From positions 23,814 to 87,813 of the forward strand of contig CAZFIM010000002.1 in the NCBI GenBank assembly GCA_964519615.1: a stretch of DNA of 64,000 nucleotides, read 5' to 3'. Origin of the DNA: an uncultured Dehalococcoidales bacterium. Lineage in GTDB: Bacteria > Chloroflexota > Dehalococcoidia > GIF9 > UBA5629. A model generated the notes under the pieces. That model ran no database searches. It was not told where the DNA came from and saw only the letters and a list, made by a program, of their open reading frames with translations. Every line of letters starts with the position of its first letter. Position 1 is the first letter of the stretch. Below, piece by piece: positions 11,265 to 33,584 of this stretch. The translations under genes and the position numbers were made by a program.

Positions 11265-11445
11265 AAAAACCGGCCGTAATAGTTAGTCTTATTTGACTTA
11301 ATTATGCACGATATCCGGTTTTGTAATAAAGCAAAGCGATAGATGTGCATCTGCCGGGTTAAGCGGGCTAAATGCATATCTGACCACAGTGATTATTACA
11401 TGCTACAGCTAAAATAATGCCATATATATGCCTGAGGAGGTAAAA

Positions 11446-14400: not shown

Positions 14401-15441
14401 CATATATTTGAAAAAATCCTCATTGGTAAAGGAATAAATGCCAGAGTACTTCCCCAAACCGATATTGTCTCTATAGATATCGGTAAGAAATATACGCTCA
14501 CCAATGAATACTTATCCTTAACAGCACTCCTGGGTGATGCCCTGAAAGAACTTGGAAAAGCGGACAGGGATGAAGTAAGCACAGCTTTTCTTATACCGCA
14601 AACTGAGGGGGCTGAAGTATACGGGCAGTACAACCGGTTCCTGAGAGCGAAACTTGATGAAGCAGGGTACCGTGATACTGATATAATTGCACCTTTTGTA
14701 GAGGATGCCGTCTATCAAAACGGTGAAGATTTGAGGTCTATTTATCTGGGTCTGCTGGCCGGTGATATTGTAAGGATTGCCCCGGCCGGGCATAGGGATG
14801 GCTGTTTAAAAAGAATAACAGAGTCGATCACAAGGAAACAATTCGAGATAGATACTCTGGTAGAAATGGCAAGGGAGTTGAAAACTGTAATTAAATCTGC
14901 CGGATGCGAGGGAAAGAGGATCTTTGCTATCGGAGAACCTTTCATTCTATTCAATGATTTCTTGAACGGCTTTATCCTGAAAGATATCGAGGCAAATGGA
15001 CACAGGGTGATATATTGCCCGTTCAGTGAATACATGTGGCTGATGTGGCAGGACTATGTGGAGCAGAATGGAAAAGATAAATCAACGGATCTGCGCCGAA
15101 GTCTGAATGAATTCGAAAGATATATAAGTGCGGTATCCGGCTGTTTCTCAGAAGAGACTCCCTTTGAGAAGGATCTTAAGGAATTTGCTGCTGCTGCGGA
15201 TGACAAGATCAAATATTATGCCGGCTGGAGCGGCAGATACCGTGAGGCTAAATTACTCAGCGATTTGCCGAATATTCAAGGTTCTATCACTGTAGCCTCT
15301 ACGTATGAAAACACCGGAATAGCACTGGGAATATTGCATAGAGGTTTTGAGAATGGAATGCCGGTTCTCAATCTCACTTTCGATGGTAATAAAAATAGAA
15401 ATGATCAGTCAAAAATCGAGGCCTTTATTCATTATCTATAG
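11446..15441 (+). CDS. large fusion protein: two tandem BadF/BadG/BcrA/BcrD (HgdC-type) activase ATPase domains plus a 2-hydroxyacyl-CoA-dehydratase-like C-terminal domain
   Basis: Two copies of the acetate/sugar-kinase-fold activase pattern (GIDIGYSSTKV...EIGGQ...CAAGTGSFLEEQ and GVDVGSTSTNLV...EIGGQDSKFI...CAAGTGSFIEEQ). A roughly 750 aa C-terminal domain follows. RBS GAGGAGG sits 5 nt before ATG 11446. The ORF from 11428 was discarded. Confidence 0.85.
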   Translation: MYVAGIDIGYSSTKVSLINRSGEIECSSYSMHRGQIKPSIKEALRELLAKYSLSEISLGAVTGSGSDLLVKPGAVESVNEVQSLVEGAMQVNNTAHSIIEIGGQSAKYITGFSKQDKSHIKMSMNANCSAGTGSFLEEQMSRLNMEIGNYSTCASKAKSIPRIAGRCSVFAKTDIIHHQQEGTPVEDILMGLAYALVKSYRGSVIRKLSMVKPVLFIGGVAHNEAIVTALRDILCLNNKELIIPEYCGNVASVGAAVIALQNNIRIDIPLLLAGLDEVSEFHDVSQDTGALPALAAFGDGDSRNKHVCKEIVPGQRGLACYLGVDVGSTSTNLVLADEKEEIVSYKYLRTRGNPAQAVINGLKELEEELDDKVNILAAGVTGSGRYMIGALIGADSIKDEITAQARAAVAVDSSIDTIFEIGGQDSKFISLASGIVTDFQMNKVCAAGTGSFIEEQSHKFNIPIDNFGELALSSSNPINLGERCTVFIETSIAANLSSGAELKDIASGLCYSVARNYLNRVVGQKKIGNKISCQGGIAYNQGIVNAFRSLTGKPVSVLPFFSVSGAYGAAILAKEEIGDKNTLFKGFHIESPQKQVDKRLEKPKSGNTAKFNKSIEELVFEGYDRVIDIRRATVGIPRALFAYGMFPMFNTFFKELGFNVLLSDPTSEETIRLGQEYSLDETCYPVKLINGHVAELVQKKVDYIFFPDLYTVDHPGSHTRQNYGCVYMQLAFKMINQAMELKIKGIELLAPTIAFNLGKEFMLKSFLDLGRQMGKDPQLTTRALQKSMQAILAFENRMEENGKIVMASIKPSEKAFVLISKIYGIADPVLNMGIPGRLMDMGYKVLSFFDLPEGDISQEHPNMYWPFGQHILEPVKLIKQHPDLYAILLTHHGCGPDSVMLHYFKELMGDKPYLNIEVDEHSSDVGVITRIEAFVNSLRKLPAKKAGGTEIYAGNKCSEKVQIRNRLAGLKDGATLYLPQMYPYSHIFEKILIGKGINARVLPQTDIVSIDIGKKYTLTNEYLSLTALLGDALKELGKADRDEVSTAFLIPQTEGAEVYGQYNRFLRAKLDEAGYRDTDIIAPFVEDAVYQNGEDLRSIYLGLLAGDIVRIAPAGHRDGCLKRITESITRKQFEIDTLVEMARELKTVIKSAGCEGKRIFAIGEPFILFNDFLNGFILKDIEANGHRVIYCPFSEYMWLMWQDYVEQNGKDKSTDLRRSLNEFERYISAVSGCFSEETPFEKDLKEFAAAADDKIKYYAGWSGRYREAKLLSDLPNIQGSITVASTYENTGIALGILHRGFENGMPVLNLTFDGNKNRNDQSKIEAFIHYL

Positions 15442-15584
15442 ATCAGAAATGCAGGCTACATTTTTGTGATACTCCGCCCGCAAGCTGTATAATACGAAAA
15501 CATACCCCGATACCTATCCTGTAACACAAGGTGGCAAAACCGCTCTTATGCGCGATGGGTACAGTTTATAAAGGAGGGCTTATA

Positions 15585-16376
15585 ATGTCAGACCGCGCTT
15601 CCGATAAAATAAGGGGGCTGCTGCTGCTGGTCGACCGCATGAATATGAAAGGCCTGCGGCACTGGGGCGGTGAGCTTATGAGGAGAAAAATACCCGCTGT
15701 TATATCGTTAAACCCGGCCACTCTGGAGAGCGATTGTGAGATGGTCAAGCAGCTTGCTGCTGACGGGTTTGAGATTGCCGGCGCCTACAATGAAGGCCCT
15801 TTCTGGAATGAAAGCTACGAGTTTCAGCGTACGATAATATCCCGCACAATGGAGAAGATTTCTGCCTGCATCGGCAAGCCGGGCCGCGTCTTTCACGCCA
15901 AGTATTTCAGTTATAACGAGGACACGCTCAAGATAGCGGACGAGCTCGGCATCGGCTTCATCCTGGCGCGGGGGAGCGCTGGTGTGAGGGGGGTGGTGTA
16001 TAAACCGCAGGAATACGGCTGCCGTATTATCTCGGTAAGCAATGTGCCTTCTAAAGGAAAGGGCACCGGCTCGCTGTGCGATGAATCGCTTCGCTGCAGG
16101 ACTGAGCCCCCTGCTACGCTGCGGGAGCTGCTATTCAGTTTATCGGTGGACAGGATAGTGCTGGTGGCGCAAACACATGTCAGCGGTGTAAAGCTGCACT
16201 GGTGGAACGTGTACCGGGACTTTTTTGACGCGGACATCGTCTCCTGGCAGAGTCTGGACCAATTCTGCGCAAATCCGCAGGTGATGCCGAACTTGCAGAT
16301 ACCCTATAATACCGCAATGGACTATATGGAGCCCAAACCGCTGATACCTCTGGAGCAGGAGGAGGACCTGGTTTAG
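15585..16376 (+). CDS. hypothetical protein (cytoplasmic, no recognisable family)
   Basis: 263 aa ORF with a strong RBS AAGGAGGG 7 nt upstream of ATG 15585. It lies directly downstream of the activase-fusion gene. Confidence 0.55.
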   Translation: MSDRASDKIRGLLLLVDRMNMKGLRHWGGELMRRKIPAVISLNPATLESDCEMVKQLAADGFEIAGAYNEGPFWNESYEFQRTIISRTMEKISACIGKPGRVFHAKYFSYNEDTLKIADELGIGFILARGSAGVRGVVYKPQEYGCRIISVSNVPSKGKGTGSLCDESLRCRTEPPATLRELLFSLSVDRIVLVAQTHVSGVKLHWWNVYRDFFDADIVSWQSLDQFCANPQVMPNLQIPYNTAMDYMEPKPLIPLEQEEDLV

Positions 16377-16386
16377 ACGTCCCGCT

Positions 16387-17469
16387 TTACGGCTTGCATT
16401 CTACACTGATGCGGGTACCCTGACCGGGGCCACTCTGGATATGTAGCGTGCCTATAGAGCCCGCTCTCTCTCTGATGCCTATGAGCCCCAGCTTGCTCTT
16501 GGATGCGAACACGTTTATCTTCTCCGGCACTTCAAATCCCACGCCGTTATCTGAAATCTCTAATTTAACATTCCCCGCATCGTGGAATTCGAGGGTGACC
16601 AGCACTTCCGTGGCCTGGGAATGCAGCTTGATATTGTTCAAGGATTCTTCCACAATGCGTATGAGGGTGATATCCATTCCCTTAGGAATCTGGACTTCCT
16701 GCCCTTTTATCACCATTTTGGCATTCATGTGAGTTTCATTCTTCAGCCTGTCTACCAGCCATCTTAAAGCAGCCACGAAACCAACATCATCGAGCAGGCC
16801 GGGCCGTAGATCGATCGCCAGTTGCCTCAGCTTATTGGAAACCTGGATAACGCTGTCTTTTACGCCCATTGCCTCGTTCTGCAATTTGGCCTTGGTCAGG
16901 TTATTCTTGTTGACGGCGATATTCTGCACCTTGCTGGCTATCAGCAGGAGCGAATGAAGCGTATCGTCATGAATCTCCTGGGCAAGACGTTTGCGCTCAA
17001 CCTCCTGCGCCCGGAAAATTTGCGCAATATTGGCCTGCCGTTCATTCTCCCTGTCCATAAGCAGCCCGCGCTCTTTTTTGCGCCAGTTGAGCTCTATGGT
17101 GACGATGGCAATCAAAAGCAAAGGAATACTGAGATAAAACACGTTTTCCAGAACCATTATATTCAATGATCTGTAATAGAACGCCATGGGCATGACCACA
17201 AGCAATGAAATAGCCCAGATAACCAGCGTACCGTACCACCATAAGAATACTGCGGATACAATGAGAGGAATGGTAAAGAGCATACCGTGAAAATGGCTGC
17301 GGAACTCCACTATTACCAGCCGTCTTATCCAATCAGGCAGGTCATGCACAAAGACGGTAGCACCGTAAAAGAGAGCCAACGCAATGACAACGATCAGGAT
17401 TGTTAAAAAGAGCGGGTTGGAGAAAAGTTTTCTTGTTTGTGCCGGAGATATGTTGCTTAATGTATGCAT
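16387..17469 (-). CDS. sensor histidine kinase, NarL/LuxR-partner type (HisKA_3 + HATPase), membrane-embedded sensor
   Basis: N-terminal TM helices with almost no periplasmic loop. H-box ERKRLAQEIHDDTLHSLL and a C-terminal ATPase with G-boxes (DNGVGF, GLIGIRERA). Confidence 0.85.
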   Translation of the reverse strand: MHTLSNISPAQTRKLFSNPLFLTILIVVIALALFYGATVFVHDLPDWIRRLVIVEFRSHFHGMLFTIPLIVSAVFLWWYGTLVIWAISLLVVMPMAFYYRSLNIMVLENVFYLSIPLLLIAIVTIELNWRKKERGLLMDRENERQANIAQIFRAQEVERKRLAQEIHDDTLHSLLLIASKVQNIAVNKNNLTKAKLQNEAMGVKDSVIQVSNKLRQLAIDLRPGLLDDVGFVAALRWLVDRLKNETHMNAKMVIKGQEVQIPKGMDITLIRIVEESLNNIKLHSQATEVLVTLEFHDAGNVKLEISDNGVGFEVPEKINVFASKSKLGLIGIRERAGSIGTLHIQSGPGQGTRISVECKP

Positions 17470-17478
17470 CTGTGCTGA

Positions 17479-18189
17479 TTACTCTATATCATCGGAGGTA
17501 ATTAACCGTGCACGTAGCCCTGTAATGACCGCTTCAGTACGTGAACTGACATTCAATTTGGCAAATATTTCAACCATGTAACTTTTTACCGTATGTAAAC
17601 TCAGGTTCATTTCATGCGAGATATCCTTGTTGCTCAGGCCTCTTGCCGCAAGCCTGAGGATCTCGAGTTCTCTGGCAGTAAGCGTGTCCTTGGCATCCAG
17701 AACGAGCGGCTTTAACGGATACTGCAGGGCATGCTTGAGCACCTGTGTGAATATCTCTGTGACCATCACTATTTCGCCTTTGCTGATGGCCCGTATCGCC
17801 GTAATTATTTCATCTTCATATGATACGCTTTTGGTAAGATATCCCGCCGCTCCCGCATCTAGTATGCTCAAGATGTGCTCGATATCGTCATAAATGGTCA
17901 GTACCAGTATAGCCATACCCGGGCACTTAGCTTTGATTTGTTGTGTAGCCTGCAGTCCGTTCAAGACGGGCATGCCGATATCCATTATCACCATATCCGG
18001 CATCAATTCGCAGGCCAATTTCACCGCCTCTGCGCCGTTGCCTGCTTCTGCGATTACCGTAAAATCAGCCTGTTTTTCCAGTGTCTCCCGGACCGCTTTG
18101 CGAAACAGAGGATGATCATCGGCCAGCAAGATAGTTATCGCTTTATCGGCGGGACTGCGTGTAGATTTCTTACTCTTCCAACCCATCAT
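17479..18189 (-). CDS. response regulator, NarL/LuxR family
   Basis: Receiver domain (ILLADDHPLFR...MDIGMP) plus a C-terminal LuxR HTH (LTARELEILRLAARGLSNKDISHEMNLSLHTVKSYMVEIFAKL). Confidence 0.9.
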   Translation of the reverse strand: MMGWKSKKSTRSPADKAITILLADDHPLFRKAVRETLEKQADFTVIAEAGNGAEAVKLACELMPDMVIMDIGMPVLNGLQATQQIKAKCPGMAILVLTIYDDIEHILSILDAGAAGYLTKSVSYEDEIITAIRAISKGEIVMVTEIFTQVLKHALQYPLKPLVLDAKDTLTARELEILRLAARGLSNKDISHEMNLSLHTVKSYMVEIFAKLNVSSRTEAVITGLRARLITSDDIE

Positions 18190-18432
18190 GATAAATCATT
18201 GTAGCACAGACGAATTTTACACATAAAAGATACGAAAGTATACATTATATCCAACTTTTTATCGTTTACAGAGAGCGGTAAATGCATGTTAAATACTACT
18301 GCAGCCAGATATTTAAGGCCAGGCAGGGCGGCGCATGTGTATGGGTATTGCAGGAACCCACTCTGTGATTTTTATTGTTTTTGTATTGTGAGAAGGTCCT
18401 GCATTGCCGATAACGATCCCGGAGGAATTGCG

Positions 18433-20808
18433 ATGAACATTGAAGCGAGGAAACAAAGAATAAGCAAATTAAGGGAGAAGGTCACAGGCACGCCGGCAAT
18501 TTGCATGGAAAGGCTGTGTTTGATGACGGAGTCTTATAAACAGACTGAGGGTGAGCCTGCTGTCATCAGAAGGGCAAAGGCGCTGCAAAAGATATTGAGC
18601 GGGATGTACATCAATATCGATGACGGAGAGTTGATTGTGGGAAAAACCACCAGCAAAGATCGCGGCAGTACGGTAACTCCGGAGATCAGACAGGAGTGGT
18701 TTTTGCAGCAAATAGAAAGCCTTTCGACCAGAGTATGGGACAGGTTCTCGCCGCTTTCGGAAGATGAAAAGAAAAAGGCAAGGAAATACATGCCCTACTG
18801 GGAAGGCAAATCCGTATGCGACCTGTTTTATGGTATGGCGCCGGAGGAATTCATCAGGCTGGACCACAAGGTCATAACCGGCGGGCTTATCATGCACAAT
18901 TTCAATGTTGGGCATATGGTTTTCGATGCCCAAAGAATTCTAAACATGGGATTGAGCGGCATCAAGAAAGAGGCTGAAGCAGAGCTGTCCAAGTTGAATC
19001 CGGGAATCTATGAGGATTTCGAGAAGTCGCAGTTTTTAAAAGCTGCCGTTATCGCTCTTGATGCTGTAGCGGGCCTTGCCCAAAGATATGCAGAACTTGC
19101 TGAAACCATGGCAAAAAACGAGAGCGGCAGCAAGAGAAGAGCTGAGCTGAAAAAGATCGCACAAACGTGCAGGAGGGTTCCTGCGGGTGCGGCCCGAACG
19201 TTTTTTGAAGCGCTGCAGTCGATCTGGTTTGTACATATAGGGATTGTCATGGAAGGGTGGGGCACCGGCATCGGTATCGGCCGGGCGGATCAGTATTTGT
19301 ATCCCTTCTATCAGAAGGATATGGAAGAGGGGAGAATTACAAAAGATGACGTTTTGGAGCTGTTTGAACTGCTCTATATAAAAATGAATTCATCGGTTAT
19401 TCTGCTGGCAGAGGATGCTGCCAGGATTGCCGGCGGCTTTCCCATATGGCCCAATATGACGCTGGGCGGCGTGACTAAGGATGGAGAAGATGCCGTAAAT
19501 GAGCTTTCTTACCTTTTCCTTGAAGCTGAAGCGGAAGTGCGGCTGCAGCAGGAGGAATTCATTATCAGGGTCAATAAAAAAACTCCGGATGCCTTTTTGC
19601 ATAAAGCATGTGAAGTCGCCAAATTGATGAGGGGAAAATTCAAATTCGTCAGCGATGATACGGCAATACAGGCGCTGCTCGATTGCGGGAAACCCCTCCC
19701 GTACGCGCGTGACTATATTGTGACAGGTTGTTTTAATCTCACCGTCCCCGGAGTATCCGCAGACCTATTCTCAGGCATGTTCAACCTGCCGATGGCGCTG
19801 GAGCTGGCTTTGAATAACGGCGTTTCACGTTTGAGCAAAGAACGGCTGGGGCCGCAAACAGGGGATGCTCGTAAATTCAGTTCCTATGACGATGTATGGA
19901 ATGCCTTTACCAAACAAGTAGCAAGCGCTGTCCCCCTGGTTGTGTTTTATATTAACGCCGATAAGAAGATTTTTGCGGATAACTACCCGTACCCGCTTGA
20001 GTCAGCGCTTTTCAGAGATTGCATCAAGCACGGCAAGAGCATTTTGCACGGAGGTACCGCTCCCTATCTCACCTGCGGAATCGGCCTTGTGGGCGCAGCT
20101 AATGTCGGTGATTCTCTGGCGGCGATAAAAAAGGTTGTATTCGAAGACAGACAGATTACCATGGAGGAATTGGTAGATGCCCTCGATAAAAATTTTGAAG
20201 GCTGTGAGAGAGTTCTCAGCCTGCTCAAGAATGCCCCAAAGTTCGGCAATGACGAGCGCTATGTTGATTCCATTGTCAACGATGTACTCATGTATACCAC
20301 CGAGGAGATAAGAAAATATAGAACCTATTTAGGGACATTGAACACCACCGCGGGTGGAGCGGTCACTTCCAATATTCCCTTAGGATATATAGTAGGGGCG
20401 CTGCCGGACGGAAGAAAGGCCGGGGAATCGCTCTCTGAAGGAGGAATATCCCCTTATCAGGGAAGAAACGTAAGCGGGCCGACGGCTACCATGAGGTCAG
20501 TATCGCAGTTGGACCTGGCACGGTTGAGCAACGGTTCCGTATTGAATATGAGATTGGACCCCGAATCACTGAAAGATGAAGCAAAGATAAGCAAACTGGT
20601 ATCCATGATCAGGACATTCTGTGAAACGGGGGGATACCTGGTTCAATTCAATATTGTCAGTACCGAAACATTAAGGGACGCGCAGGTGCATCCGGAAAAG
20701 TATAGAGACCTTCTAGTCAGGGTAGCCACTTACAGTGCTTATTTTGTGGAACTGAGCCCTGAATTGCAGAACGATATCATTGCCCGGACGGAATTTCAGG
20801 CTCTGTGA
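18433..20808 (+). CDS. glycyl-radical-enzyme (PFL2/glycerol-dehydratase-like) family homologue with Thr at the canonical radical-Gly position
   Basis: About 791 aa. The C-terminal radical-domain fingerprint FNIVSTETLRDAQVHPEKYRDLLVRVATYSAYFVELSPELQNDIIARTEF aligns with RVxGY but has ACT (Thr) where Gly is expected. The Cys loop reads TGCFNL (20849-region gene follows) rather than GCVE. RBS GGAGGA precedes ATG 18433. Confidence 0.85.
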   Translation: MNIEARKQRISKLREKVTGTPAICMERLCLMTESYKQTEGEPAVIRRAKALQKILSGMYINIDDGELIVGKTTSKDRGSTVTPEIRQEWFLQQIESLSTRVWDRFSPLSEDEKKKARKYMPYWEGKSVCDLFYGMAPEEFIRLDHKVITGGLIMHNFNVGHMVFDAQRILNMGLSGIKKEAEAELSKLNPGIYEDFEKSQFLKAAVIALDAVAGLAQRYAELAETMAKNESGSKRRAELKKIAQTCRRVPAGAARTFFEALQSIWFVHIGIVMEGWGTGIGIGRADQYLYPFYQKDMEEGRITKDDVLELFELLYIKMNSSVILLAEDAARIAGGFPIWPNMTLGGVTKDGEDAVNELSYLFLEAEAEVRLQQEEFIIRVNKKTPDAFLHKACEVAKLMRGKFKFVSDDTAIQALLDCGKPLPYARDYIVTGCFNLTVPGVSADLFSGMFNLPMALELALNNGVSRLSKERLGPQTGDARKFSSYDDVWNAFTKQVASAVPLVVFYINADKKIFADNYPYPLESALFRDCIKHGKSILHGGTAPYLTCGIGLVGAANVGDSLAAIKKVVFEDRQITMEELVDALDKNFEGCERVLSLLKNAPKFGNDERYVDSIVNDVLMYTTEEIRKYRTYLGTLNTTAGGAVTSNIPLGYIVGALPDGRKAGESLSEGGISPYQGRNVSGPTATMRSVSQLDLARLSNGSVLNMRLDPESLKDEAKISKLVSMIRTFCETGGYLVQFNIVSTETLRDAQVHPEKYRDLLVRVATYSAYFVELSPELQNDIIARTEFQAL

Positions 20809-20848
20809 AAGAGCGGCAGGTTTAGTACGGGCAGGATAAGAGCGGTCA

Positions 20849-21769
20849 ATGGATAAACGGGAAGGAATTGTATTCCACATCATCAGAGGGTCTTTTGTGG
20901 ATGGATACGGAATCAGGACCACGGTATTTTTAAAGGGATGTCCTCTACGGTGTCTCTGGTGCTGCAACCCTGAAGGACAGCTAAAGCAGCTGCAGATCAA
21001 GTACACGCCCTCAGCGTGCAACAGCTGCGGAAGATGCGCCGAGGTCTGTCCGTATAATGCAATTCAAATCGGGCCGGATAAGAGGGCATTACTCAACAGG
21101 GAATTGTGCACTGATTGCGGACAATGTATAGATGTCTGCTTTACGGGGGCGCTTTCCTTTTTCGGCAAGGTGATGACTGTAGATGAGGTCTGGGATATAG
21201 TGAAGCAGGATGAGCGCTATTACCGTTCTTCCGGGGGAGGGGTCACCATCGGCGGCGGTGAACCGACCTTTCAACCTTATTTCACCTATGCTCTCATGAA
21301 AAGATGTCAGGAAAACCATATTCATGTGGCACTTGACACCTGCGGATATGTCGACAGCAAGCCCGTGCTGCGGTGTCTGGAGGAAGCTGACCTGCTGCTC
21401 TTTGATTTGAAGGGTCTGGATGAGGCGCGCCATAGGGACAATACCGGTGTATCGAATGAGCTGATTCTTAAAAACCTGATACGACTGGATGCCATGGGAA
21501 AAGCGATTATTATCAGATTGCCGCTCATTCCGGGATACACGGACTCGGAAATAAATATCGAAGCTACTGCCAAGCTTATATCCGGGCTTAAATCGGTAGA
21601 GAGGGTAGATCTTCTGGCCTATCACTTATATGGCTCTACAAAATACGAGCAATTAGGGATGCCCGATCGGCTGCGCATGCTGAATATTCAGCCTCTTGGC
21701 GGTGAAAGGCTCGCTGCCGTTATGGATGTGTTCTGTCGATACGATATAAAAGTTCAGATCGGAGGGTAG
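20849..21769 (+). CDS. glycyl-radical enzyme activating enzyme (radical SAM; PFL-AE family with ferredoxin-like insert)
   Basis: CPLRCLWC (Cx3Cx2C), two additional CxxCxxCxxxCP clusters, and the GGGEP SAM motif. Confidence 0.9.
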   Translation: MDKREGIVFHIIRGSFVDGYGIRTTVFLKGCPLRCLWCCNPEGQLKQLQIKYTPSACNSCGRCAEVCPYNAIQIGPDKRALLNRELCTDCGQCIDVCFTGALSFFGKVMTVDEVWDIVKQDERYYRSSGGGVTIGGGEPTFQPYFTYALMKRCQENHIHVALDTCGYVDSKPVLRCLEEADLLLFDLKGLDEARHRDNTGVSNELILKNLIRLDAMGKAIIIRLPLIPGYTDSEINIEATAKLISGLKSVERVDLLAYHLYGSTKYEQLGMPDRLRMLNIQPLGGERLAAVMDVFCRYDIKVQIGG

Positions 21770-21856
21770 GAATAGAGCGCCGGAGCCTCAAACCAGGTAT
21801 TTACAGAGCCAAAAGACGAAGTTATAAAGGAAAATAGCAAACCGGATGGTATTTAT

Positions 21857-23740
21857 ATGCAGAAAGCAATTGTAAGCTACGATAAAGGTATCGGGATACT
21901 CACGAAAGTTTGCGCATATGTAGGTATCTCAGCCATGTTTTTTGTTGTGCTGCTCACGGTAACGCACGGCACAGGACGGTACATTTTCAACAAACCTGTG
22001 CTGGGCATGGTTGAAATAACGAACTTTATGGTAATCAGCGCAGTCTTCCTCACGTTTGCGTATACACTGAAATTGAACGGGCACACGAGTATACGTGTTA
22101 TAATCGACCGCCTCTCGGAGAGAGGCCAGGCTATCTGCGGAGCGGTCAGCAGCGTAATCGGCATAATTTTCTCTGTCGGAGCGTGCTGGCAGACATTGAT
22201 GCAGTGCAAAGAGGTTGTCGGCGCGGTATCCGTCATACTCCATTTGCCCAAAGTACCCTTTTTCTATGTGATAGCTGTGGGGTGGGGACTTTTTACGCTT
22301 ACGCTGATACTGCTGTTAGCAAAAGACCTGTCCAAACTGATGGGCGGGAAATGGATACTGTCTCTTATTCTGCTGACTCTTGCGGCCTCTGCGGCGCTGA
22401 TTCTATTTACACATTCCGGTAGAGGAGTGTTAGGAGATATGAATCAACTCGCGGTCGGTCTGATCGGACTGCTGGTAATCAGTATTCTGCTCTTCTCAGG
22501 TATACCCGTTGCCATAGTTTTAGCGGCAGGCGGGTTTTTCGGCGTTGCTTTATTTGCCGGGTTTCAACCGGCAAACTGTGCTATTGCCACTATCCCTTAT
22601 GCTACCTTATATAACTATGCCTGGTCGAGCATACCGATGTATATCCTCATGGGATTTTTTGCCGATCATTCAGGATTGGCAAAAGATTTTTATACAGGGG
22701 TACAGAAATGGGTGGGACATTTCCGCGGCGGGCTGGCTCAGGCCGTCATCGTCGCCAACGCTGCATTCGGTGCGTGCAGCGGTAACTCGCTCAGTGCAGC
22801 AATTACTTTCTGCTCTATCTCCTTACCTGAAATGCGCAAGTACAGGTATGACGACAAGATCACGCTGGGGGCTATCTGCGGCGGAAGCCTGCTCTCCAGC
22901 TTAATACCTCCCAGCATAGTGCTCATTATTTTCGGTGCGGTGACACAGACGCAGATCAGCGATCTCTTTATCGGTGGGATAATTCCCGGGCTGCTGCTGT
23001 CTGTTATGTTTATGATTCAAATCTACGTTCAGTGCCGGATAAATCCTTTTGTCGGTCCGGCTATGCCGCCGTCACCCATAAGTGAGAGGCTCAGGGCAAC
23101 CACCGGCATGTGGACGGTGGTTGCTGTCTTCGGAATAATAATAGGGGGAATATACTTCGGTCTATTCACGCCCACGGAGGCGGGGGCATTCGGGGCTTTT
23201 GTTGTTCTCCTCATCGGCCTGATAAGGAGAAAACTGGGCTGGGGAGATTTCAAGGATTCCCTGCTGCAGTCAGCTATCACTCTGGGAATGGTAGGATTTT
23301 TATTCGTGGCTGCTCTGGTATTCAACCTGTTTATCGTGAGGACCGGTGTGCCCGTGGCGTTGTCTGAACTGGTGAGCAATGTCAGTTCTCCTCCTCTTTT
23401 TATGATGCTTGTCGTACTGCTGTATATCATACTGGGCCTCTTTTTAGACGGGCTGGCAATATTGATGCTGACTTTGCCTGTTCTTTTCCCGCTTGCCACA
23501 CAGTTGGGTATCGATCCGGTGCATTTCTGCATAGTAATTTCAACAGCTAATCTAATAGGTGCCTTGACGCCCCCCTTCGGTATGGTCGTTTATTCGCTCG
23601 CTACCGTAGCAAAAGATGTCCCTATTATGAAAATCTTTGCCGGTTCAGTGCCTTTTGTTCTCACTACGCTGGCCTGCAATGTAGTACTTATATTTTTCCC
23701 CCAGTTGTCAACGTTTCTTCCTTCTACGATGGCCTCGTAG
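21857..23740 (+). CDS. TRAP transporter fused permease (DctQ-like N-terminus plus DctM-like domain)
   Basis: 627 aa polytopic membrane protein. The first four or so TM helices are DctQ-like and are followed by a DctM 12-TM domain. Confidence 0.85.
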   Translation: MQKAIVSYDKGIGILTKVCAYVGISAMFFVVLLTVTHGTGRYIFNKPVLGMVEITNFMVISAVFLTFAYTLKLNGHTSIRVIIDRLSERGQAICGAVSSVIGIIFSVGACWQTLMQCKEVVGAVSVILHLPKVPFFYVIAVGWGLFTLTLILLLAKDLSKLMGGKWILSLILLTLAASAALILFTHSGRGVLGDMNQLAVGLIGLLVISILLFSGIPVAIVLAAGGFFGVALFAGFQPANCAIATIPYATLYNYAWSSIPMYILMGFFADHSGLAKDFYTGVQKWVGHFRGGLAQAVIVANAAFGACSGNSLSAAITFCSISLPEMRKYRYDDKITLGAICGGSLLSSLIPPSIVLIIFGAVTQTQISDLFIGGIIPGLLLSVMFMIQIYVQCRINPFVGPAMPPSPISERLRATTGMWTVVAVFGIIIGGIYFGLFTPTEAGAFGAFVVLLIGLIRRKLGWGDFKDSLLQSAITLGMVGFLFVAALVFNLFIVRTGVPVALSELVSNVSSPPLFMMLVVLLYIILGLFLDGLAILMLTLPVLFPLATQLGIDPVHFCIVISTANLIGALTPPFGMVVYSLATVAKDVPIMKIFAGSVPFVLTTLACNVVLIFFPQLSTFLPSTMAS

Positions 23741-23858
23741 GATTGTGTTTTATTAATGAAATAAGTCTAATAAAGGAGATGACAGTATGATTTGAACAAA
23801 ACGACTGAATTGTTTTTCATATCACTATTCGTTCTAAATAACAGGGGAGGTTATCGAA

Positions 23859-25067
23859 ATGAAATCAAAAAGCACACTGATTATTGCGAGTGTTCTGCTG
23901 GTTCTCGTAATGCTGATGGGGATTGTCGGCTGTTCCACTAAAGCACCGGCGTCGGCACCGGCGGAGAAGCCACCGACCTCAACAGCATCACCGGATAAGA
24001 ACAAGGTCTATAAATTGACGTTTTCAAGCTTTAACTCTGCTGAAGATAACAAGAGTAAAGTAATCTCAAAATGGTGGTTCAAATGGCTCAATGAGGAGAG
24101 CGGCGGCAGAATAGAGGTTACTTCTTACTTCGATGCACAGGCAGCCGCCCCGCAGGATCAGATAACGGCTGCTAAAAATCATATAGTGGATATTGCGGAA
24201 CCTGCCTCGCACGGTTCACCGGGGTCTTTCCCGCTAAACGATCTTATCGCTCTGCCATTTGTCTTTGACTGGCCGTCCAGCCGTGCTTTCTCACTGACGC
24301 AACTGGCATTACTGGAAAAATATCCTCAATTGAGAGCTGAGATAGAAGATCAGGGAGTGAAGCTGCTGGGCTCCGTTCAGTGCGCCTCACCGTCCGAACT
24401 CTGGGCAGCAGACAAACCGATAAAAGTCCCGAACGATATCAAGGGAATGGTGCTTCATTGCTGGGGGCAGATGGAGGCCGATGCCTTGAAGCTTTGCGGT
24501 GCTGCACCTGAAACCTTTGCTCCGGGTGAAGTGTATGACGCATTGTCCAAAGGCGTAATTGACGGCACTATGGACAGCTATGTTGCGGCATCGCTCGTAT
24601 TCGGTCATATCGACAAAGTCAATTATGGAATAGAAATTAATCTGTCCAATGTATACTGGATGCACGTAATGAACCTCGATACCTGGAACAGCCTACCCTC
24701 CGATCTGCAGGAGCTCTTTATAGGAGAGAACGCCCGCCGTATAACCGAACTATGGGGCTACCAATTTGAGCAGGACGATAGTTTTGCCAAGGATGTTGCT
24801 AATAAGCAGCTTAGTGAACGCGGTAAATCTGAAGTTTATGTTCCCACCGCAGCAGAGATGAAACTATGGAGAGATGCTGTCGTTCAGGTAAAAGACGCTT
24901 GGGTAAAGAGGGCAAATGAGCTGGGAGCACCGGGCGAAGACATGTGGAACGACCTGTTGAAATTCGCTGAACAGTACTCCTACAAGAATTATCCCACACA
25001 GGATTGGTACCTGCCTACATTACAGAAATATCAAAATGAGGTTCCGCTGCCTGATCACTGGAAGTAA
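23859..25067 (+). CDS. TRAP transporter solute-binding lipoprotein (DctP-like)
   Basis: Signal peptide with lipobox IVGC and periplasmic-binding-protein-like sequence features shared with the DctP at 35493. RBS GGGGAGG. Confidence 0.65.
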   Translation: MKSKSTLIIASVLLVLVMLMGIVGCSTKAPASAPAEKPPTSTASPDKNKVYKLTFSSFNSAEDNKSKVISKWWFKWLNEESGGRIEVTSYFDAQAAAPQDQITAAKNHIVDIAEPASHGSPGSFPLNDLIALPFVFDWPSSRAFSLTQLALLEKYPQLRAEIEDQGVKLLGSVQCASPSELWAADKPIKVPNDIKGMVLHCWGQMEADALKLCGAAPETFAPGEVYDALSKGVIDGTMDSYVAASLVFGHIDKVNYGIEINLSNVYWMHVMNLDTWNSLPSDLQELFIGENARRITELWGYQFEQDDSFAKDVANKQLSERGKSEVYVPTAAEMKLWRDAVVQVKDAWVKRANELGAPGEDMWNDLLKFAEQYSYKNYPTQDWYLPTLQKYQNEVPLPDHWK

Positions 25068-25087
25068 TCAATATCTGCAACCTGTAT

Positions 25088-25115
25088 CCGGGATGAGCTA
25101 CGCTGCTCATCCCGG
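25088..25115. terminator. hairpin (11 bp stem CCGGGATGAGC / GCTCATCCCGG) between the convergent TRAP SBP and MFS genes
   Basis: Perfect inverted repeat; no U-tract. Confidence 0.35.
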
Positions 25116-25228
25116 ACAGATATCCTGATATCCGGTAGCATTTGGATACAGGCGCATTGCCGTACGGTATATTCATCGGCTTCATTAGCAGTTCGTACGA
25201 CGGAATATATTCAGCAGCGACTCCACGC

Positions 25229-26626
25229 TTATTTTTTGTCAACCCGGTTGTGCGGAGGTAGCATGGATGTGGGGCGGGCGGGTATGAAAAATACCGCTGC
25301 TATGGAAAGAACCAGAACGACAGCCCAGCCGGTAAAGAGAATACTGAATGCGGCGCTCATATCATCCATAAGCTGTAGTACGATGGTGGATATCAGTATG
25401 CCTATGCTGCTGCCGATCTGCCTGAACAGGATTCGCACTGCGGTGATCGTTGCCACTCTATCGGGCATAAGTTCGATGCAGGCGTTATTCGAAGAAGGAG
25501 AAGCAGAGCCGATGCCGATTCCGGAAATGAACATGATGACGGCAAGCACTGCTGCTGCATCAAGATTGAGGCCCATGATCCTGAAGCCTTGAGGTTCGAG
25601 TGCAAGCAGGAAAAGGCTAAGCGCCATCACCACCGTGCCTACCAGAATAGGCTTGCGGTATCCCCATCTCATAAGGAAAAAACTGGCGATTGCTGAGGTT
25701 ATAATCGTTGCGACAGACCTGGGGGTAAGTATGAAACCGCTCATAAAAGTCGACATGCCGTAGACGGATACTGCGAAGTAGGGAATAAGCGTGATAACTC
25801 CTATAGCGCATGCGCCGTAAACAAGATTATATATGTTCGTAGCCAGGAACGGTCTTTCCCTCAGAAGCGCGAAATCGAGTATAGGTTCAGGAGTACTGCG
25901 TTCCCGGCGAATAAAAAGAAACAGGATAATGATACCGGCGGCAATGAATAATGTGGAAAATAGGGATGATATCCCGAATTCAGCATCTGACAGTGCGGTA
26001 AAACCGAACATAGCGGCAAAAAGGGAGAGAGAAAGCAGGCCTGCGCCGGCAAGATCGATCTTTCCCTCGCGATGTCCGCTTCCCCCGTGCAGCAGCAGCC
26101 AGGAAAAAAGGAGAACTATAATTCCTGCAGGAACATTGAGCCAGAAGACAGACCTCCACCCCCACGCATCCACCATCCACCCCCCAAGGTTCGGGCCGAT
26201 TACCATACCAATGGGAAAAATGCTGCTGATCAGGCCTATCGAGCGCTGGCGTGATTCGGGAAACTCGCTGCTGATAATAGCAGTTGCGCAGGGCATAAAC
26301 GCCGCCCCGCCGACCGCCTGAATCACACGGAAGGCGATGAGCAGATAGATATCGGGAGCGATGGCGCACAGTGCTGAGCCGATCGTAAACAATAATGTGC
26401 TTACCGTGAGGACCGTTCTCTGGCCGAAGAATTCTGTTATTTTCCCTGTCAAAGGCACTACCGCAATCCAGGTCAGTTGAAAGGCGGTCAACGTCCAGCC
26501 GGCAATAACTACGGTGGTGTCCAGATCTGAAATAATGTCAGGAAAAGCGACCGATATAGCGGTGGCACTGACCGTATAAAGCAGCAAAGGCAGGGTCGCA
26601 ATGATAAAAACAAGATATCTGCGCAT
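25229..26626 (-). CDS. MFS transporter (14-TM DHA2 / EmrB-QacA-like efflux family)
   Basis: 465 aa. MFS motif GKITEFFGQRTVL and a 14-helix hydropathy layout. Confidence 0.85.
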   Translation of the reverse strand: MRRYLVFIIATLPLLLYTVSATAISVAFPDIISDLDTTVVIAGWTLTAFQLTWIAVVPLTGKITEFFGQRTVLTVSTLLFTIGSALCAIAPDIYLLIAFRVIQAVGGAAFMPCATAIISSEFPESRQRSIGLISSIFPIGMVIGPNLGGWMVDAWGWRSVFWLNVPAGIIVLLFSWLLLHGGSGHREGKIDLAGAGLLSLSLFAAMFGFTALSDAEFGISSLFSTLFIAAGIIILFLFIRRERSTPEPILDFALLRERPFLATNIYNLVYGACAIGVITLIPYFAVSVYGMSTFMSGFILTPRSVATIITSAIASFFLMRWGYRKPILVGTVVMALSLFLLALEPQGFRIMGLNLDAAAVLAVIMFISGIGIGSASPSSNNACIELMPDRVATITAVRILFRQIGSSIGILISTIVLQLMDDMSAAFSILFTGWAVVLVLSIAAVFFIPARPTSMLPPHNRVDKK

Positions 26627-32071: not shown

Positions 32072-32119
32072 TTTTCTTGCTTATTTCCATTAATTTAAAT
32101 TAAAAGATAGCACCTTTTA

Positions 32120-32133
32120 GCCTAGATAACAAG
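32120..32133. promoter_or_regulatory. operator-like motif GCCTAGATAACAAG, copy 1, upstream of the GntR gene; contains ATAAC-AA-GTTAT inverted repeat
   Basis: Exact 14-mer repeated at 32292-32305. Confidence 0.4.
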
Positions 32134-32257
32134 TTATACTAGTAACCGAAATTTATATAAGGGCAGAGAGAAATGCAAAAAAGTTACACGATTATATGTT
32201 TTCACTCCCTTATTATTTTGTAACGGTTTGAAGAATAAGAAATCTTCTTATATGTGC

Positions 32258-32305: not shown

Positions 32306-32328
32306 CTAACAAGTAACAAGGAGATAAC

Positions 32329-33513: not shown

Positions 33514-33584
33514 TAATAAATTATTTTGCTCAAATACTCCTGTTTCAGGCCATCTGTTATTGAGTGAGAGGAAAGGAATAAAAA

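What the first reader, a model, noticed from the sequence alone, without database searches (positions are those of the whole stretch)
16387..25067. Two-component-regulated cassette: NarL-type TCS, atypical GRE, activase and TRAP transporter
The gene order is RR and HK on the minus strand, then GRE, activase, fused TRAP DctQM and a TRAP lipoprotein SBP on the plus strand. This resembles characterised GRE substrate-utilisation islands such as the isethionate and hydroxyproline clusters, where a TRAP imports an organic acid or sulfonate. The histidine kinase has essentially no periplasmic loop, which suggests intramembrane or cytoplasmic sensing. The 240 bp divergent intergenic region 18190-18432 should carry both promoters and RR-binding sites; the short T-rich repeats tttttattg / tttttgtattg at roughly 18365-18390 may be part of these. 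Because the GRE is atypical (see the previous finding), the transported substrate and the chemistry are both open.
Basis: inference. Interest (0 to 1): 0.6.

Follow-up and report, generated by a model that had tools for sequence, protein, structure and literature searches.

The report
Threonyl-radical enzyme cassette with TRAP transporter
Six adjacent genes encode a recently discovered type of radical enzyme (a threonine, not the usual glycine, carries the radical), its activating enzyme, a dedicated importer and a sensor-regulator pair; no enzyme of this class has a known function, so the importer's binding protein offers a direct way to find the substrate.

Summary
The gene order is as described: HK and RR on the minus strand, then GRE-like enzyme, activase, fused DctQM and a lipoprotein DctP on the plus strand.

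- **The enzyme.** The "atypical GRE" is a threonyl radical enzyme (TRE), one class of the aminoacyl radical enzymes described in 2024. Its motif is RVATYS (Thr766) with Cys433 kept. All 120 best homologues also carry Thr. A June 2026 review states that no function is known for this class.
- **Active site.** It lacks the eliminase Glu: the loop is GCFNLT, a signature unique among 211 TREs.
- **The SBP.** It falls structurally in the aromatic-acid TRAP clade (TarP-like), but the carboxylate-clamping Arg is replaced by His200. "Organic acid or sulfonate" is therefore doubtful.
- **Co-conservation is modular.** An activase lies near the TRE in 57 of 77 loci and a TRAP component in 15 of 77. TRE and SBP subtypes co-vary.
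- **The two-component system.** The HK belongs to a discrete 4-TM family that sits beside TRAP operons in 3 of 4 independently sampled contexts, with varying catalytic genes such as UbiD/UbiX. It is a TRAP-associated regulator, not a TRE-specific one.
- **Full set.** TRE, TRAP and this TCS recur together in only one other locus, L017, and no activase was found there.

Substrate and chemistry remain open. My best guess is an aromatic or hydrophobic compound converted to a carbonyl product.

The parts
16387..17469 (-). Sensor histidine kinase (360 aa). It has a 4-TM N-terminal sensor module with no periplasmic domain, then HisKA_3 (H-box His166) and HATPase_c.
   Evidence: Pfam/NCBIfam. Hydropathy gives 4 TM segments. 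The sensor part matches no Pfam family. About 57 full-length homologues (357-385 aa) form a discrete family. The membrane motif EFRxHxxGxLFxIPxI is shared with the L017 and L162 kinases.
17479..18189 (-). NarL/FixJ-type response regulator (236 aa): receiver domain plus GerE helix-turn-helix. It lies 9 bp upstream of the HK gene, so the two are probably co-transcribed.
   Evidence: Its best equivalogs (NarL, NarP, MctR) all score below their cutoffs.
18190..18432 (.). Divergent intergenic region, presumed to hold both promoters and the RR sites. It contains three copies of TTTKTATYGT (18256-18265, 18369-18378, 18380-18389), a palindrome around 18235-18246 (AAAGTATAC/GTATACATT), and imperfect 16-nt inverted arms at 18340-18355 / 18397-18412.
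   Evidence: Sigma-70 consensus hits are not above chance. There is no Rfam hit. The leader fold is not significant, z = -1.3.
18433..20808 (+). Threonyl radical enzyme (791 aa; deposited as 840 aa from 18286). It has the PFL-like barrel and the radical domain. The radical-site motif is RVATYS with Thr766 (20728-20730). The thiyl-radical Cys433 (19729-19731) sits in the loop TGCFNLT.
20849..21769 (+). Radical-SAM activating enzyme (306 aa). It has CX3CX2C (Cys31/35/38), two ferredoxin-like Cx2Cx2Cx3C motifs and a GGGEP SAM motif.
   Evidence: It is 44-61% identical to the activases next to TREs in 57 of 77 loci.
21857..23740 (+). Fused TRAP membrane component DctQ (residues 31-157) plus DctM (206-617).
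23859..25067 (+). TRAP DctP-family substrate-binding lipoprotein (402 aa; lipobox Cys25). It belongs to the aromatic-ligand structural clade. The canonical ligand-clamping Arg is replaced by His200 (24456-24458).
25087..25116 (+). Perfect 12-bp stem-loop between the convergent DctP and MFS genes. It is the likely 3' end of the operon, although no U-tract follows it.
   Evidence: sequence; dG -30.5 kcal/mol, z = -5.9, 0 of 200 shuffles as stable.

Best explanation
This is an inducible "import and convert" cassette built around a threonyl radical enzyme (TRE).

**Shown by sequence and homology**
- The enzyme belongs to the TRE clade of aminoacyl radical enzymes.
- It is followed by its own radical-SAM activase and a complete TRAP importer on the same strand, and preceded by a divergently oriented NarL-type two-component system.

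**Inferred from the published biochemistry of FpTRE1/2**
- The activase abstracts the C-alpha hydrogen of Thr766.
- The stored radical passes to Cys433, and the thiyl radical attacks the substrate.

**Inferred from context**
- The TRAP system (lipoprotein DctP plus fused DctQM) delivers the substrate.
- The SBP's fold neighbours are aromatic-acid binders, yet it lacks the Arg clamp. The enzyme's pocket loses the small-diol-binding polar residues of glycerol dehydratase. The substrate is therefore probably a larger aromatic or hydrophobic compound, not held by a classical carboxylate salt bridge.
- Related TRAP-linked TRE loci carry aldehyde dehydrogenases, aldehyde:ferredoxin oxidoreductase, an aldo-keto reductase, an SDR or enoate reductases. 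The product is therefore probably a carbonyl compound, made by lyase/eliminase-like chemistry without the usual Glu base.
- The 4-TM kinase has no extracytoplasmic domain and belongs to a family found next to TRAP operons. It most likely detects the substrate within the membrane or through contact with the TRAP components, phosphorylates the RR, and the RR activates the divergent operon from the 243-bp intergenic region.
For: **TRE identity**
- Thr766 sits in RVATYS and Cys433 is conserved.
- All 120 best 90%-clusters carry RV[AS]T[YW]S, as do 92 of 94 GRE matches in 77 genome loci.
- In the 50%-representative library, 11 of the top 12 carry Thr (the twelfth is a 606-aa fragment lacking the motif). 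Gly-bearing GREs start only at about 600 bits and 42% identity or below.
- The window enzyme is 56% identical to the Moorella sp. SLA38 enzyme and 50% to a Lawsonibacter hominis enzyme. Both organisms appear in the SI table of Fu et al..
- Radical formation on Thr, dependent on the cognate activase, and thiyl-radical evidence are published for FpTRE1/2 (PMC11528403).

**Activase**
- An activase is adjacent to the TRE in 57 of 77 loci.

**TRAP coupling**
- Same strand, with gaps of 40, 87 and 118 bp.
- A TRAP component lies within 10 kb of a TRE in 15 of 77 loci across Bacillota, Chloroflexota and gut Clostridia.
- TRE and SBP pairwise identities correlate: Pearson 0.65 over 91 pairs from 14 loci.
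- The SBP most similar to the window's (L081, 45%) accompanies the TRE with the most similar Cys loop (CINLTV against CFNLTV). Four gut loci with Arg-containing SBPs all share the TRE signature FHAG-CHNP[ST]I.

**SBP**
- AF2 model pLDDT is 89.8.
- The top 27 Foldseek PDB hits are TarP (coumarate, cinnamate, ferulate, caffeate, 4-hydroxyphenylacetate), "aromatic acid ligand" SBPs and four EFI entries. Their E-values are 8e-24 to 3e-20, against 1e-17 or weaker for isethionate and C4-dicarboxylate binders.
- Arg is replaced by His200. The role of that Arg is described in PMC11668362.

**Pocket, aligned to glycerol dehydratase 1R8W**
- His164 is kept. Glu435 becomes Asn, Asp447 is a gap, His281 becomes Thr, Ser282 becomes Gly, Asn156 becomes Leu, Tyr339 becomes Trp and Tyr640 becomes Gly.

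**Carbonyl-processing neighbours**.

**TCS-TRAP link**
- The HK family is discrete.
- Its RR-HK pair is divergent from, or adjacent to, DctPQM in L165, L166 and the P0254 locus, in L017 (TRE+TRAP) and in L162 (TRAP + UbiD/UbiX).
Against: - No substrate, ligand or transcript evidence exists; everything functional is inference.
- The cassette has no downstream carbonyl-processing gene of its own.
- The window TRE's active-site signature (LHTG-CFNLTV) is unique among 211 sequences, so extrapolating from neighbours of 50-60% homologues is risky.
- The SBP clade is not TRE-specific: 0 of 80 metagenome loci with related SBPs carry a TRE. Its nearest relatives sit beside beta-oxidation or benzoyl-CoA-like genes.
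- Only 2 of 77 TRE loci have a NarL-type TCS, and one of those (L004) has a PAS-type kinase instead.
- Promoter-like hits are not above chance, and no cis motif shared with related loci beats shuffles.
- Loss of the Arg does not prove a non-acid ligand. His200 or other residues could bind an anion.
- Some TRE-linked SBPs in gut loci keep the Arg.
Confidence: 0.6

Rival explanations
1. This is a conventional GRE 1,2-eliminase island for a small hydroxylated organic acid or sulfonate, like the isethionate, DHPS or hydroxyproline clusters. The TRAP imports an anion, and a Cys/Glu-assisted elimination yields an aldehyde.
For: The best characterised-family scores are to HpsG, HypD and CutC models, and the closest solved structure is glycerol dehydratase. 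The operon layout mirrors the isethionate and DHPS clusters that use TRAP importers (PMC6453916 and PMC13335735, listed). Aldehyde-oxidising genes flank some related TREs. Fu et al. also consider eliminase-like chemistry the most likely.
Against: Every equivalog score is far below its cutoff: HpsG scores 618 against 1000. The radical residue is Thr, not Gly. The catalytic Glu at Cys+2 is Asn, and Asp447, His281 and Ser282 of the dehydratase site are lost. The SBP lacks the Arg that clamps carboxylate or sulfonate in IseP and most TRAP SBPs. Its nearest structures are aromatic-acid binders rather than isethionate or DHPS binders.
Confidence: 0.12
2. The enzyme is an aromatic-acid decarboxylase, analogous to the GRE arylacetate decarboxylases (HPAD, IAD, PAD). 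The cassette imports an aryl-carboxylate and releases a volatile or toxic aromatic product, which would explain why no downstream catabolic genes are needed.
For: The cassette is minimal: enzyme, activase and transporter, as in GRE decarboxylase operons (own knowledge). The SBP's fold neighbours include TarP with 4-hydroxyphenylacetate bound. The same TCS+TRAP chassis in L162 carries a UbiD/UbiX (de)carboxylase pair in place of the TRE.
Against: The decarboxylase NCBIfam models score lowest among the PFL2-type families: IAD 449 and HPAD 374 bits, in fragmented matches. The SBP lacks the carboxylate clamp, whereas both UbiD-linked SBPs in L162 keep it. Carbonyl-processing neighbours in related loci point to a lyase rather than a decarboxylase.
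Confidence: 0.13
3. The adjacency is partly coincidental. The TCS and TRAP form one self-contained uptake module with its own substrate, and the TRE-activase pair is an independent insertion acting on something not imported by this TRAP.
For: The HK family accompanies TRAP operons with many different catalytic genes, or none. SBP relatives usually lack a TRE. Most TRE loci (62 of 77) have no TRAP.
Against: The TRE and activase lie between the TCS and the TRAP genes on the same strand, with gaps of 40-118 bp. The only strong hairpin comes after DctP. TRE subtype and SBP subtype co-vary across 14 loci. L017 repeats the TRE+TRAP+TCS combination in another phylum.
Confidence: 0.1
4. The Thr-bearing protein is a catalytically dead GRE relic or a non-enzymatic (regulatory or structural) paralogue.
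For: Long-standing theory held that substituted C-alpha radicals were disfavoured (discussed in PMC11528403). No activity has been shown for any TRE.
Against: Thr766, Cys433, the eliminase-site His161 and about 150 other columns are invariant across 26 family members. Dedicated activases are retained. EPR shows stable Thr radicals and thiyl-radical evidence in FpTRE1/2. The ORF is intact.
Confidence: 0.05

Closest known systems
Threonyl radical enzymes FpTRE1/FpTRE2 and their activase from Flavonifractor plautii (aminoacyl radical enzymes; Fu et al., JACS 2024, PMC11528403)
   Same: Thr replaces the radical Gly in the RVxG[FWY] motif. The thiyl Cys is kept and an adjacent CX3CX2C radical-SAM activase is present. 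The window enzyme is most similar to GRE eliminases, and it falls in the same sequence clade as enzymes from organisms in that paper's SI table (Moorella sp. SLA38, 56%; Lawsonibacter hominis, 50%).
   Different: There is a single TRE per activase rather than the usual pair. The source is probably an environmental bacterium, as judged from the sources of its nearest homologues, rather than a gut one. The Cys-loop signature GCFNLT is unique. The enzyme is linked to a TRAP importer and a two-component system, and neither the paper nor its SI mentions a transporter.
GRE sulfonate-utilisation clusters with TRAP importers: isethionate sulfite-lyase IslA/IslB with IseP-type TRAP, and DHPS HpsG/HpsH with HpsKLM
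   Same: The cluster logic is the same: radical enzyme, activase, TRAP importer and a local regulator. HpsG is the best-scoring characterised NCBIfam model (618 bits).
   Different: Those enzymes use Gly and a Cys-x-Glu dyad, and their SBPs clamp the sulfonate with conserved Arg residues. Here the residues are Thr, Cys-x-Asn and His200. Scores are far below the equivalog cutoffs.
B12-independent glycerol dehydratase (PDB 1R8W), the closest solved structure by sequence
   Same: It aligns full-length (549 bits). Cys433 has the same number in both proteins, and His164 and the fold are conserved.
   Different: Gly763 becomes Thr766, Glu435 becomes Asn, Asp447 is deleted, His281/Ser282 become Thr/Gly, Tyr640 becomes Gly and Asn156 becomes Leu. 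The diol-binding site is dismantled.
TarPQM-type TRAP transporters for lignin-derived aromatic acids (TarP structures 7NR2, 7NRA, 7NSW, 7NTD, 7NRR, 7NQG)
   Same: They are the best structural matches of the SBP model (TM-score about 0.7 normalised by the query and 0.86-0.90 by the target; E down to 8e-24). Both are DctP-type SBPs working with DctQ and DctM.
   Different: Sequence identity is only 22-26%. The window SBP is a lipoprotein with N- and C-terminal extensions. It has His where TarP has the Arg of GMKIRG.
Intramembrane- or transporter-coupled sensing kinases of the HisKA_3/NarL class (LiaS, UhpB with UhpC, BceS with BceAB)
   Same: It has a HisKA_3 + HATPase_c core and a NarL-type partner. 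It lacks an extracytoplasmic sensor domain and is genomically coupled to a transporter.
   Different: The similarity is confined to the kinase core (LiaS 80, UhpB 92 and MctS 108 bits, all far below cutoffs). The 4-TM sensor module matches no Pfam family. Its partner is a TRAP system, and I found no published description of such a pairing.

Membership tests
Canonical glycyl radical enzyme (GRE) | PFL-like ten-stranded barrel domain plus C-terminal radical domain | tested here: met
   PF02901 scores 634 bits and PF01228 102 bits. TIGR01774 scores 694 against a cutoff of 678.
Canonical glycyl radical enzyme (GRE) | Radical-bearing Gly in the fingerprint RVxG[FWY] | tested here: not met
   The motif is RVATYS. 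Thr766 is encoded by ACT, two substitutions away from any Gly codon.
Threonyl radical enzyme (AARE class) | Thr at the radical position, with the thiyl-radical Cys retained | tested here: met
   Thr766 and Cys433. Both are invariant in a 26-member alignment.
Threonyl radical enzyme (AARE class) | Falls within the monophyletic TRE clade rather than being an isolated mutant of a Gly enzyme | tested here: met
   All 120 best homologues carry Thr, as do 92 of 94 matches in genome loci. In the 50% representative library Thr-bearing sequences rank first, and Gly appears only at about 42% identity or below. The clade includes enzymes from organisms listed by Fu et al.. No formal tree was built.
Threonyl radical enzyme (AARE class) | Cognate radical-SAM activase encoded nearby | tested here: met
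   The activase lies 40 bp downstream and has CX3CX2C plus two auxiliary cluster motifs.
Threonyl radical enzyme (AARE class) | Activase-dependent stable C-alpha radical on Thr (EPR) | not testable with these tools
   Shown only for FpTRE1/2 (PMC11528403).
GRE 1,2-eliminase / dehydratase | Cys-x-Glu dyad (general base two residues after the thiyl Cys) | tested here: not met
   GCFNL has Asn435 where glycerol dehydratase has Glu435. Most close TREs also lack the Glu.
GRE 1,2-eliminase / dehydratase | Equivalog-level similarity to a characterised eliminase (HpsG, HypD, CutC, HpfG) | tested here: not met
   Scores are 618, 570, 556 and 508 bits against cutoffs of 1000-1100.
TRAP transporter (DctP type) | DctP-family SBP plus DctQ and DctM membrane components | tested here: met
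   PF03480, PF04290 and PF06808 all match. Q and M are fused.
TRAP transporter (DctP type) | Conserved Arg in the SBP that salt-bridges the ligand's carboxylate or sulfonate | tested here: not met
   His200 aligns with the Arg of GxKxR in TarP and other SBPs. The role of that Arg is described in PMC11668362.
TarP-like aromatic-acid SBPs | Closest structural neighbours are aromatic-acid-bound SBPs | tested here: met
   The top 27 Foldseek hits, about 1000-fold better in E-value than the next tier.
TarP-like aromatic-acid SBPs | Binds hydroxycinnamates or aryl-carboxylates | not testable with these tools
   Identity is only 22-26% and the clamp Arg is missing. A binding assay is needed.
NarL/FixJ-class two-component system | HisKA_3 + HATPase_c kinase paired with a REC + GerE/LuxR-HTH regulator | tested here: met
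   H-box His166 is invariant in the HK alignment. The receiver acidic pocket is present.
NarX/NarL nitrate system proper | Equivalog-level match and a periplasmic P-box sensor | tested here: not met
   NarL scores 157 against 250 and NarX 65 against 578. There is no periplasmic domain.

The most novel reading that the evidence does not exclude
This cassette may be the first tractable handle on the function of aminoacyl radical enzymes.

- The TRE would perform a radical lyase-type conversion, independent of the usual Glu base, on an aromatic or hydrophobic non-carboxylate compound.
- That compound would be delivered by an Arg-less TRAP system.
- Expression would be controlled by a previously undescribed family of 4-TM HisKA_3 kinases. 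These would sense substrate through the TRAP transporter or its SBP, which would be a new transporter-coupled signalling partnership.
- TRE active-site subtypes would pair with matching SBP subtypes across phyla, so SBP ligand screening could de-orphanise the whole enzyme class.
Probability: 0.3. Interest if true: 0.85.

Novelty: new variant of a known kind. Interest (0 to 1): 0.62.

Why it matters
Aminoacyl radical enzymes overturned the rule that only glycine stores the radical in this superfamily. Two years on, a 2026 review still states that no function is known for any of them, and the discoverers reported that genome contexts gave no clear insight.

This locus, and the 15 TRE loci with TRAP genes found here, link a TRE to a soluble high-affinity binding protein. 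Ligands of such a protein can be screened directly by thermal shift or ITC. TRE and SBP subtypes co-vary, so ligands found this way are credible substrate candidates. The divergent two-component system also gives a ready-made reporter for the inducer.

Two side results deserve attention in their own right:
- The TRE-linked SBPs from environmental genomes and metagenomes all lack the Arg clamp, which bears on the ligand range of TRAP transporters.
- A discrete 4-TM kinase family travels with TRAP operons, which points to transporter-coupled sensing.

Tried and rejected
- **Organism identification failed.** The genome scan returned no hit above 60% identity. The exact SBP, activase, DctQM and the 840-aa ORF are in the protein collection, from one unnamed NCBI contig of 102,173 bp. 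The contig itself could not be retrieved.
- **Rfam** found nothing across 16000-25500.
- **Promoter and terminator consensus scans** were at or below shuffle expectation.
- **The 5' leader** of the TRE does not fold better than shuffles, z = -1.3, so I dropped a riboswitch or attenuator reading.
- **A shared RR-binding motif across four divergent TCS/TRAP intergenic regions.** The best 12-mers, including TACGAAAGTATA, scored no better than shuffled controls. I keep this only as a weak lead.
- **SBP-side test of TRE linkage.** 80 metagenome loci with related SBPs contained no TRE, so the idea that this SBP clade is TRE-specific is rejected.
- **A TRE-specific TCS is rejected.** Only 2 of 77 TRE loci have a NarL-type TCS, and one of those has a PAS-type kinase.
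- **Literature searches** for the Thr variant under "radical glycine / threonine" terms were uninformative before "threonyl radical" found the key paper. A search for a TRAP-linked intramembrane kinase found nothing relevant.
- **The last context look-up** (P0273) had no record.
- **The divergent gene next to the HK homologue in L167** is not an SBP, and the contig ends there, so that context is uninformative.

Full report
**Observation.**
- Pfam and NCBIfam give a HisKA_3/HATPase_c kinase (16387-17469, minus strand) and a REC+GerE regulator (17479-18189, minus strand).
- On the plus strand they give a PFL-like/Gly_radical protein ending at 20808 and a glycyl-radical-type activase (20849-21769).
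- The remaining two plus-strand genes are a fused DctQ-DctM (21857-23740) and a DctP-family binding protein (23859-25067).
- The binding protein has a signal peptide and the lipobox IVGC.
- The kinase has four hydrophobic helices within residues ~18-128, and no loop between them is longer than about 20 residues.
- The enzyme most likely starts at ATG 18433, behind a GGAGG. Homologues are 787-805 aa and align from about residue 8 of that form.
- The T-rich repeats are present in three copies. The degenerate pattern is enriched, with 4 copies in the window against 0.59 expected and 3 of them here. I derived the pattern from the data, so the enrichment is over-stated.

**What the "atypical GRE" is.**
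- The radical fingerprint reads RVATYS: Thr766 (ACT) replaces the glycine, while the thiyl-radical Cys433 is intact.
- This is not a private mutation. All 120 best homologues in the 5.8-billion-protein collection have RV[AS]T[YW]S. So do 92 of 94 matches in 77 loci from GTDB species genomes; the two Gly-bearing exceptions are distant (26% and 34% identity) and carry the classical GCVEP loop.
- In the library of 50% representatives, 11 of the top 12 carry Thr (the twelfth is a truncated fragment). One Ala variant follows, and then Gly enzymes from about 42% identity downward.
- The literature search found the explanation. Fu et al. (JACS 2024, PMC11528403) described aminoacyl radical enzymes with Ala, Ser or Thr at this position. 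They showed by EPR that dedicated activases install stable C-alpha radicals on them, and listed 71 threonyl radical enzymes (TREs), mostly from gut MAGs.
- Their SI table includes Moorella sp. SLA38 and Lawsonibacter hominis NSJ-51. TRE loci from those organisms are my L009 and L050, 56% and 50% identical to the window enzyme.
- They reported that genome contexts were too varied to predict a reaction. A June 2026 review still says that no AARE function has been elucidated (PMC13450708).
- Neither the paper nor its SI mentions a TRAP system or any transporter.

**Active site.**
- The closest solved structure by sequence is B12-independent glycerol dehydratase.
- In the residue-level alignment His164 is kept and is invariant in the TRE family.
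- Glu435 becomes Asn and Asp447 falls in a gap. His281/Ser282 become Thr/Gly, Asn156 becomes Leu, Tyr339 becomes Trp and Tyr640 becomes Gly. The roles of these dehydratase residues are from my knowledge of the GDH literature.
- The small-diol site and the Glu base are thus gone, and the pocket should be larger and less polar.
- An 11-position signature taken at these sites is LHTG-CFNLTV-T, unique among 211 TRE sequences. The family as a whole is highly diverse at these positions, which points to many substrate specificities.
- All characterised-enzyme NCBIfam models score far below their cutoffs; the best is HpsG at 618 against 1000.

**The transporter.**
- By sequence and by fold the binding protein's nearest solved relatives are aromatic-acid TRAP SBPs. 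These are TarP with coumarate, cinnamate, ferulate, caffeate or 4-hydroxyphenylacetate, and marine SBPs "specific for aromatic acid ligands".
- Four EFI entries with truncated titles are also among them. From memory 4P56 binds mandelate and 4NAP binds D-tryptophan; I did not verify this.
- These fill the top 27 Foldseek ranks at E 8e-24 to 3e-20. Isethionate and C4-dicarboxylate binders start at 1e-17.
- Yet the Arg that clamps the ligand's acid group in this family (PMC11668362) is His200 in the window protein.
- The same position is non-Arg in all ten distinct TRE-linked SBPs (the window's included) that accompany the window-like, ≥51%-identical TREs. These come from environmental genomes and metagenomes plus one Sporobacter MAG. 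The residues there are Cys, Leu, Ile, Trp, Ser or His.
- Five gut-type TRE loci have SBPs that keep the Arg.
An aromatic or hydrophobic ligand bound without the classical salt bridge fits better, but this is inference.

**Co-conservation.**
- Among 77 TRE loci, an activase lies within 10 kb in 57, a TRAP component in 15, a second TRE in 13, and a NarL-type kinase-regulator pair in only 2.
- The TRE-TRAP link looks functional rather than accidental. Pairwise identities of TREs and of their SBPs correlate (Pearson 0.65 over 91 pairs; these are not independent and phylogeny contributes).
- The SBP most similar to the window's (45%, L081) accompanies the TRE with the most similar Cys loop, CINLTV.
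- Four gut loci from different genera pair an Arg-containing SBP with the same TRE signature, FHAG-CHNP[ST]I.
- From the SBP side the link is not exclusive. None of 80 metagenome loci with related SBPs had a TRE, and the nearest SBP relatives sit beside beta-oxidation or benzoyl-CoA-like genes.

**The two-component system.**
- The kinase belongs to a discrete family. About 57 full-length homologues of 357-385 aa score 190-382 bits, followed by a sharp drop to kinases that share only the catalytic core.
- The sensor part matches no Pfam family. It shares a conserved membrane motif (EFRxHxxGxLFxIPxI) with the kinases of L017 and L162.
- I sampled contexts from the kinase side. Three of four have the RR-HK pair divergent from or adjacent to DctP-DctQ-DctM, with different catalytic genes: a fumarate-reductase-like flavoprotein, molybdopterin oxidoreductases, or none. 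The fourth is cut by a contig end.
- L017 (Dehalococcoidales) combines this kinase family with TRE+TRAP.
- L162 has the same divergent layout but carries a UbiD/UbiX decarboxylase pair instead of the TRE, and its SBPs keep the Arg.
- Several loci place an extra DctP next to the TCS.
- I conclude that the TCS is a TRAP-associated regulator. Given the absence of any extracytoplasmic domain, I infer that it senses within the membrane or through the transporter or its SBP.

**Likely chemistry.**
- The window cassette has no downstream enzyme.
- TRAP-linked TRE loci elsewhere carry two aldehyde dehydrogenases (L028), an aldehyde:ferredoxin oxidoreductase and a CoA-transferase (L030), an aldo-keto reductase (L017), an SDR (L081) and OYE-type enoate reductases (L003, L004).
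- SDR, 3-hydroxyacyl-CoA dehydrogenase and OYE families top the neighbour counts around the 16 closest TRE loci.
- This favours a carbonyl product from lyase/eliminase-like chemistry, in line with Fu et al.'s own guess. It would have to proceed without the canonical Glu.
- A decarboxylase role, by analogy with the UbiD locus and the minimal operon, is a live alternative. It is disfavoured by the missing carboxylate clamp.

**Operon boundaries and cis elements.**
- Gaps between the four plus-strand genes are 40, 87 and 118 bp.
- A perfect 12-bp hairpin follows DctP: -30.5 kcal/mol, z = -5.9.
- Consensus promoter and terminator hits are not above chance and Rfam finds nothing.
- The leader does not fold unusually, and no motif shared with related intergenic regions beats shuffles.
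- RR binding to the T-rich repeats or to the 18235-18246 palindrome remains a hypothesis.

**Verdict.** The enzyme class is already known, so this is not categorically new. However, a TRE embedded in a TRAP-plus-TCS utilisation cassette, with subtype-matched SBPs across phyla and a TRAP-associated 4-TM kinase family, has not been described in the literature I could search. It makes the open question of TRE function experimentally approachable. The source organism could not be identified. The lipoprotein SBP suggests a monoderm (Gram-positive-type) host, and the radical enzyme, whose class is oxygen-sensitive, suggests an anaerobe.

Noticed in passing
L001-L077 (genome loci); P0001-P0120; P0365-P0514: The TRE clade is much larger and more environmental than the 71 sequences, mostly from gut MAGs, reported in 2024. 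There are 243 relatives among GTDB species genomes, spanning Chloroflexota, Desulfobacterota, Acidobacteriota, Actinomycetota and Bacillota. Cultured carriers include Sporomusa aerivorans DSM 13326 (two loci 15 kb apart, L007 and L014), Neomoorella sulfitireducens SLA38 and Lawsonibacter hominis NSJ-51.
   Followed up: partly
L165 8252-10083; L166 3660-5464; L162 6692-8547; L017 12803-14593; window 16387-18189: A discrete family of ~360-aa HisKA_3 kinases with an unannotated 4-TM sensor module travels with TRAP (DctPQM) operons carrying different catalytic genes. Some loci add an extra DctP beside the TCS (RR-HK-DctP in the P0254 locus; DctP convergent to the HK in L162, L146, L147 and L157). 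This hints at SBP- or transporter-coupled sensing.
   Followed up: partly
L162 9203-14664: This locus has the same divergent TCS+TRAP layout as the window, but with a UbiD-family decarboxylase and a UbiX flavin prenyltransferase in place of the TRE and activase. One of its SBPs carries an InlB B-repeat N-terminal domain. Both of its SBPs keep the carboxylate-clamp Arg.
   Followed up: partly
L028 12383-15448; L030 1865-3688 and 7281-8537; L017 10498-11514; L003 5606-9761: TRAP-linked TRE loci carry carbonyl-processing genes next to the TRE: two aldehyde dehydrogenases, an aldehyde:ferredoxin oxidoreductase plus a family III CoA-transferase, an aldo-keto reductase, and tandem OYE-type enoate reductases. 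This suggests that TRE products are aldehydes, ketones or enones.
   Followed up: partly
L031, L033, L034, L042 (gut and rumen Clostridia): A divergent pair of TREs plus one activase sits beside a TRAP system whose SBP retains the Arg. All four loci share the TRE active-site signature FHAG-CHNP[ST]I. This subtype is probably the most approachable one for gut-microbiome work.
   Followed up: partly
window 18286-18432: The deposited gene model for the TRE (840 aa) begins 49 codons upstream of the start supported by homology and by the RBS. The extension (MLNTTAARYLRPG...) has no counterpart in any homologue and would swallow the T-rich repeats.
   Followed up: yes
window 11428-15441 (+): A 1337-aa fusion protein has two BcrAD/BadFG-type ATPase domains, DUF2229 and an HGD-D (2-hydroxyacyl-CoA dehydratase-like) segment. 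A 281-aa protein with weak polysaccharide-deacetylase similarity follows at 15531-16376. No link to the cassette was established.
   Followed up: no
P0365-P0377 (50% representatives): Some TRE-clade representatives keep a Glu two residues after the Cys (CHEPF, CIEKG, CWELE), while the window enzyme and most close relatives do not. An Ala-bearing representative (P0377, RVAAYS) ranks directly after the Thr block.
   Followed up: no
window 18231-18246; L162 about 8575-8595; L165 about 8175-8190: A CGAAAG(T/G)(A/G)TA(C/T) element lies 30-80 nt from the RR start codon in three of four divergent TCS/TRAP intergenic regions, in the same orientation. It did not beat shuffled controls in a 12-mer comparison.
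   Followed up: yes
window 31316-34574: A GntR/FCD regulator lies divergent from an enolase-superfamily (MR/MLE) enzyme and a D-2-hydroxyacid dehydrogenase. This looks like a separate acid-sugar or hydroxy-acid utilisation unit, and I did not examine it further.
   Followed up: no
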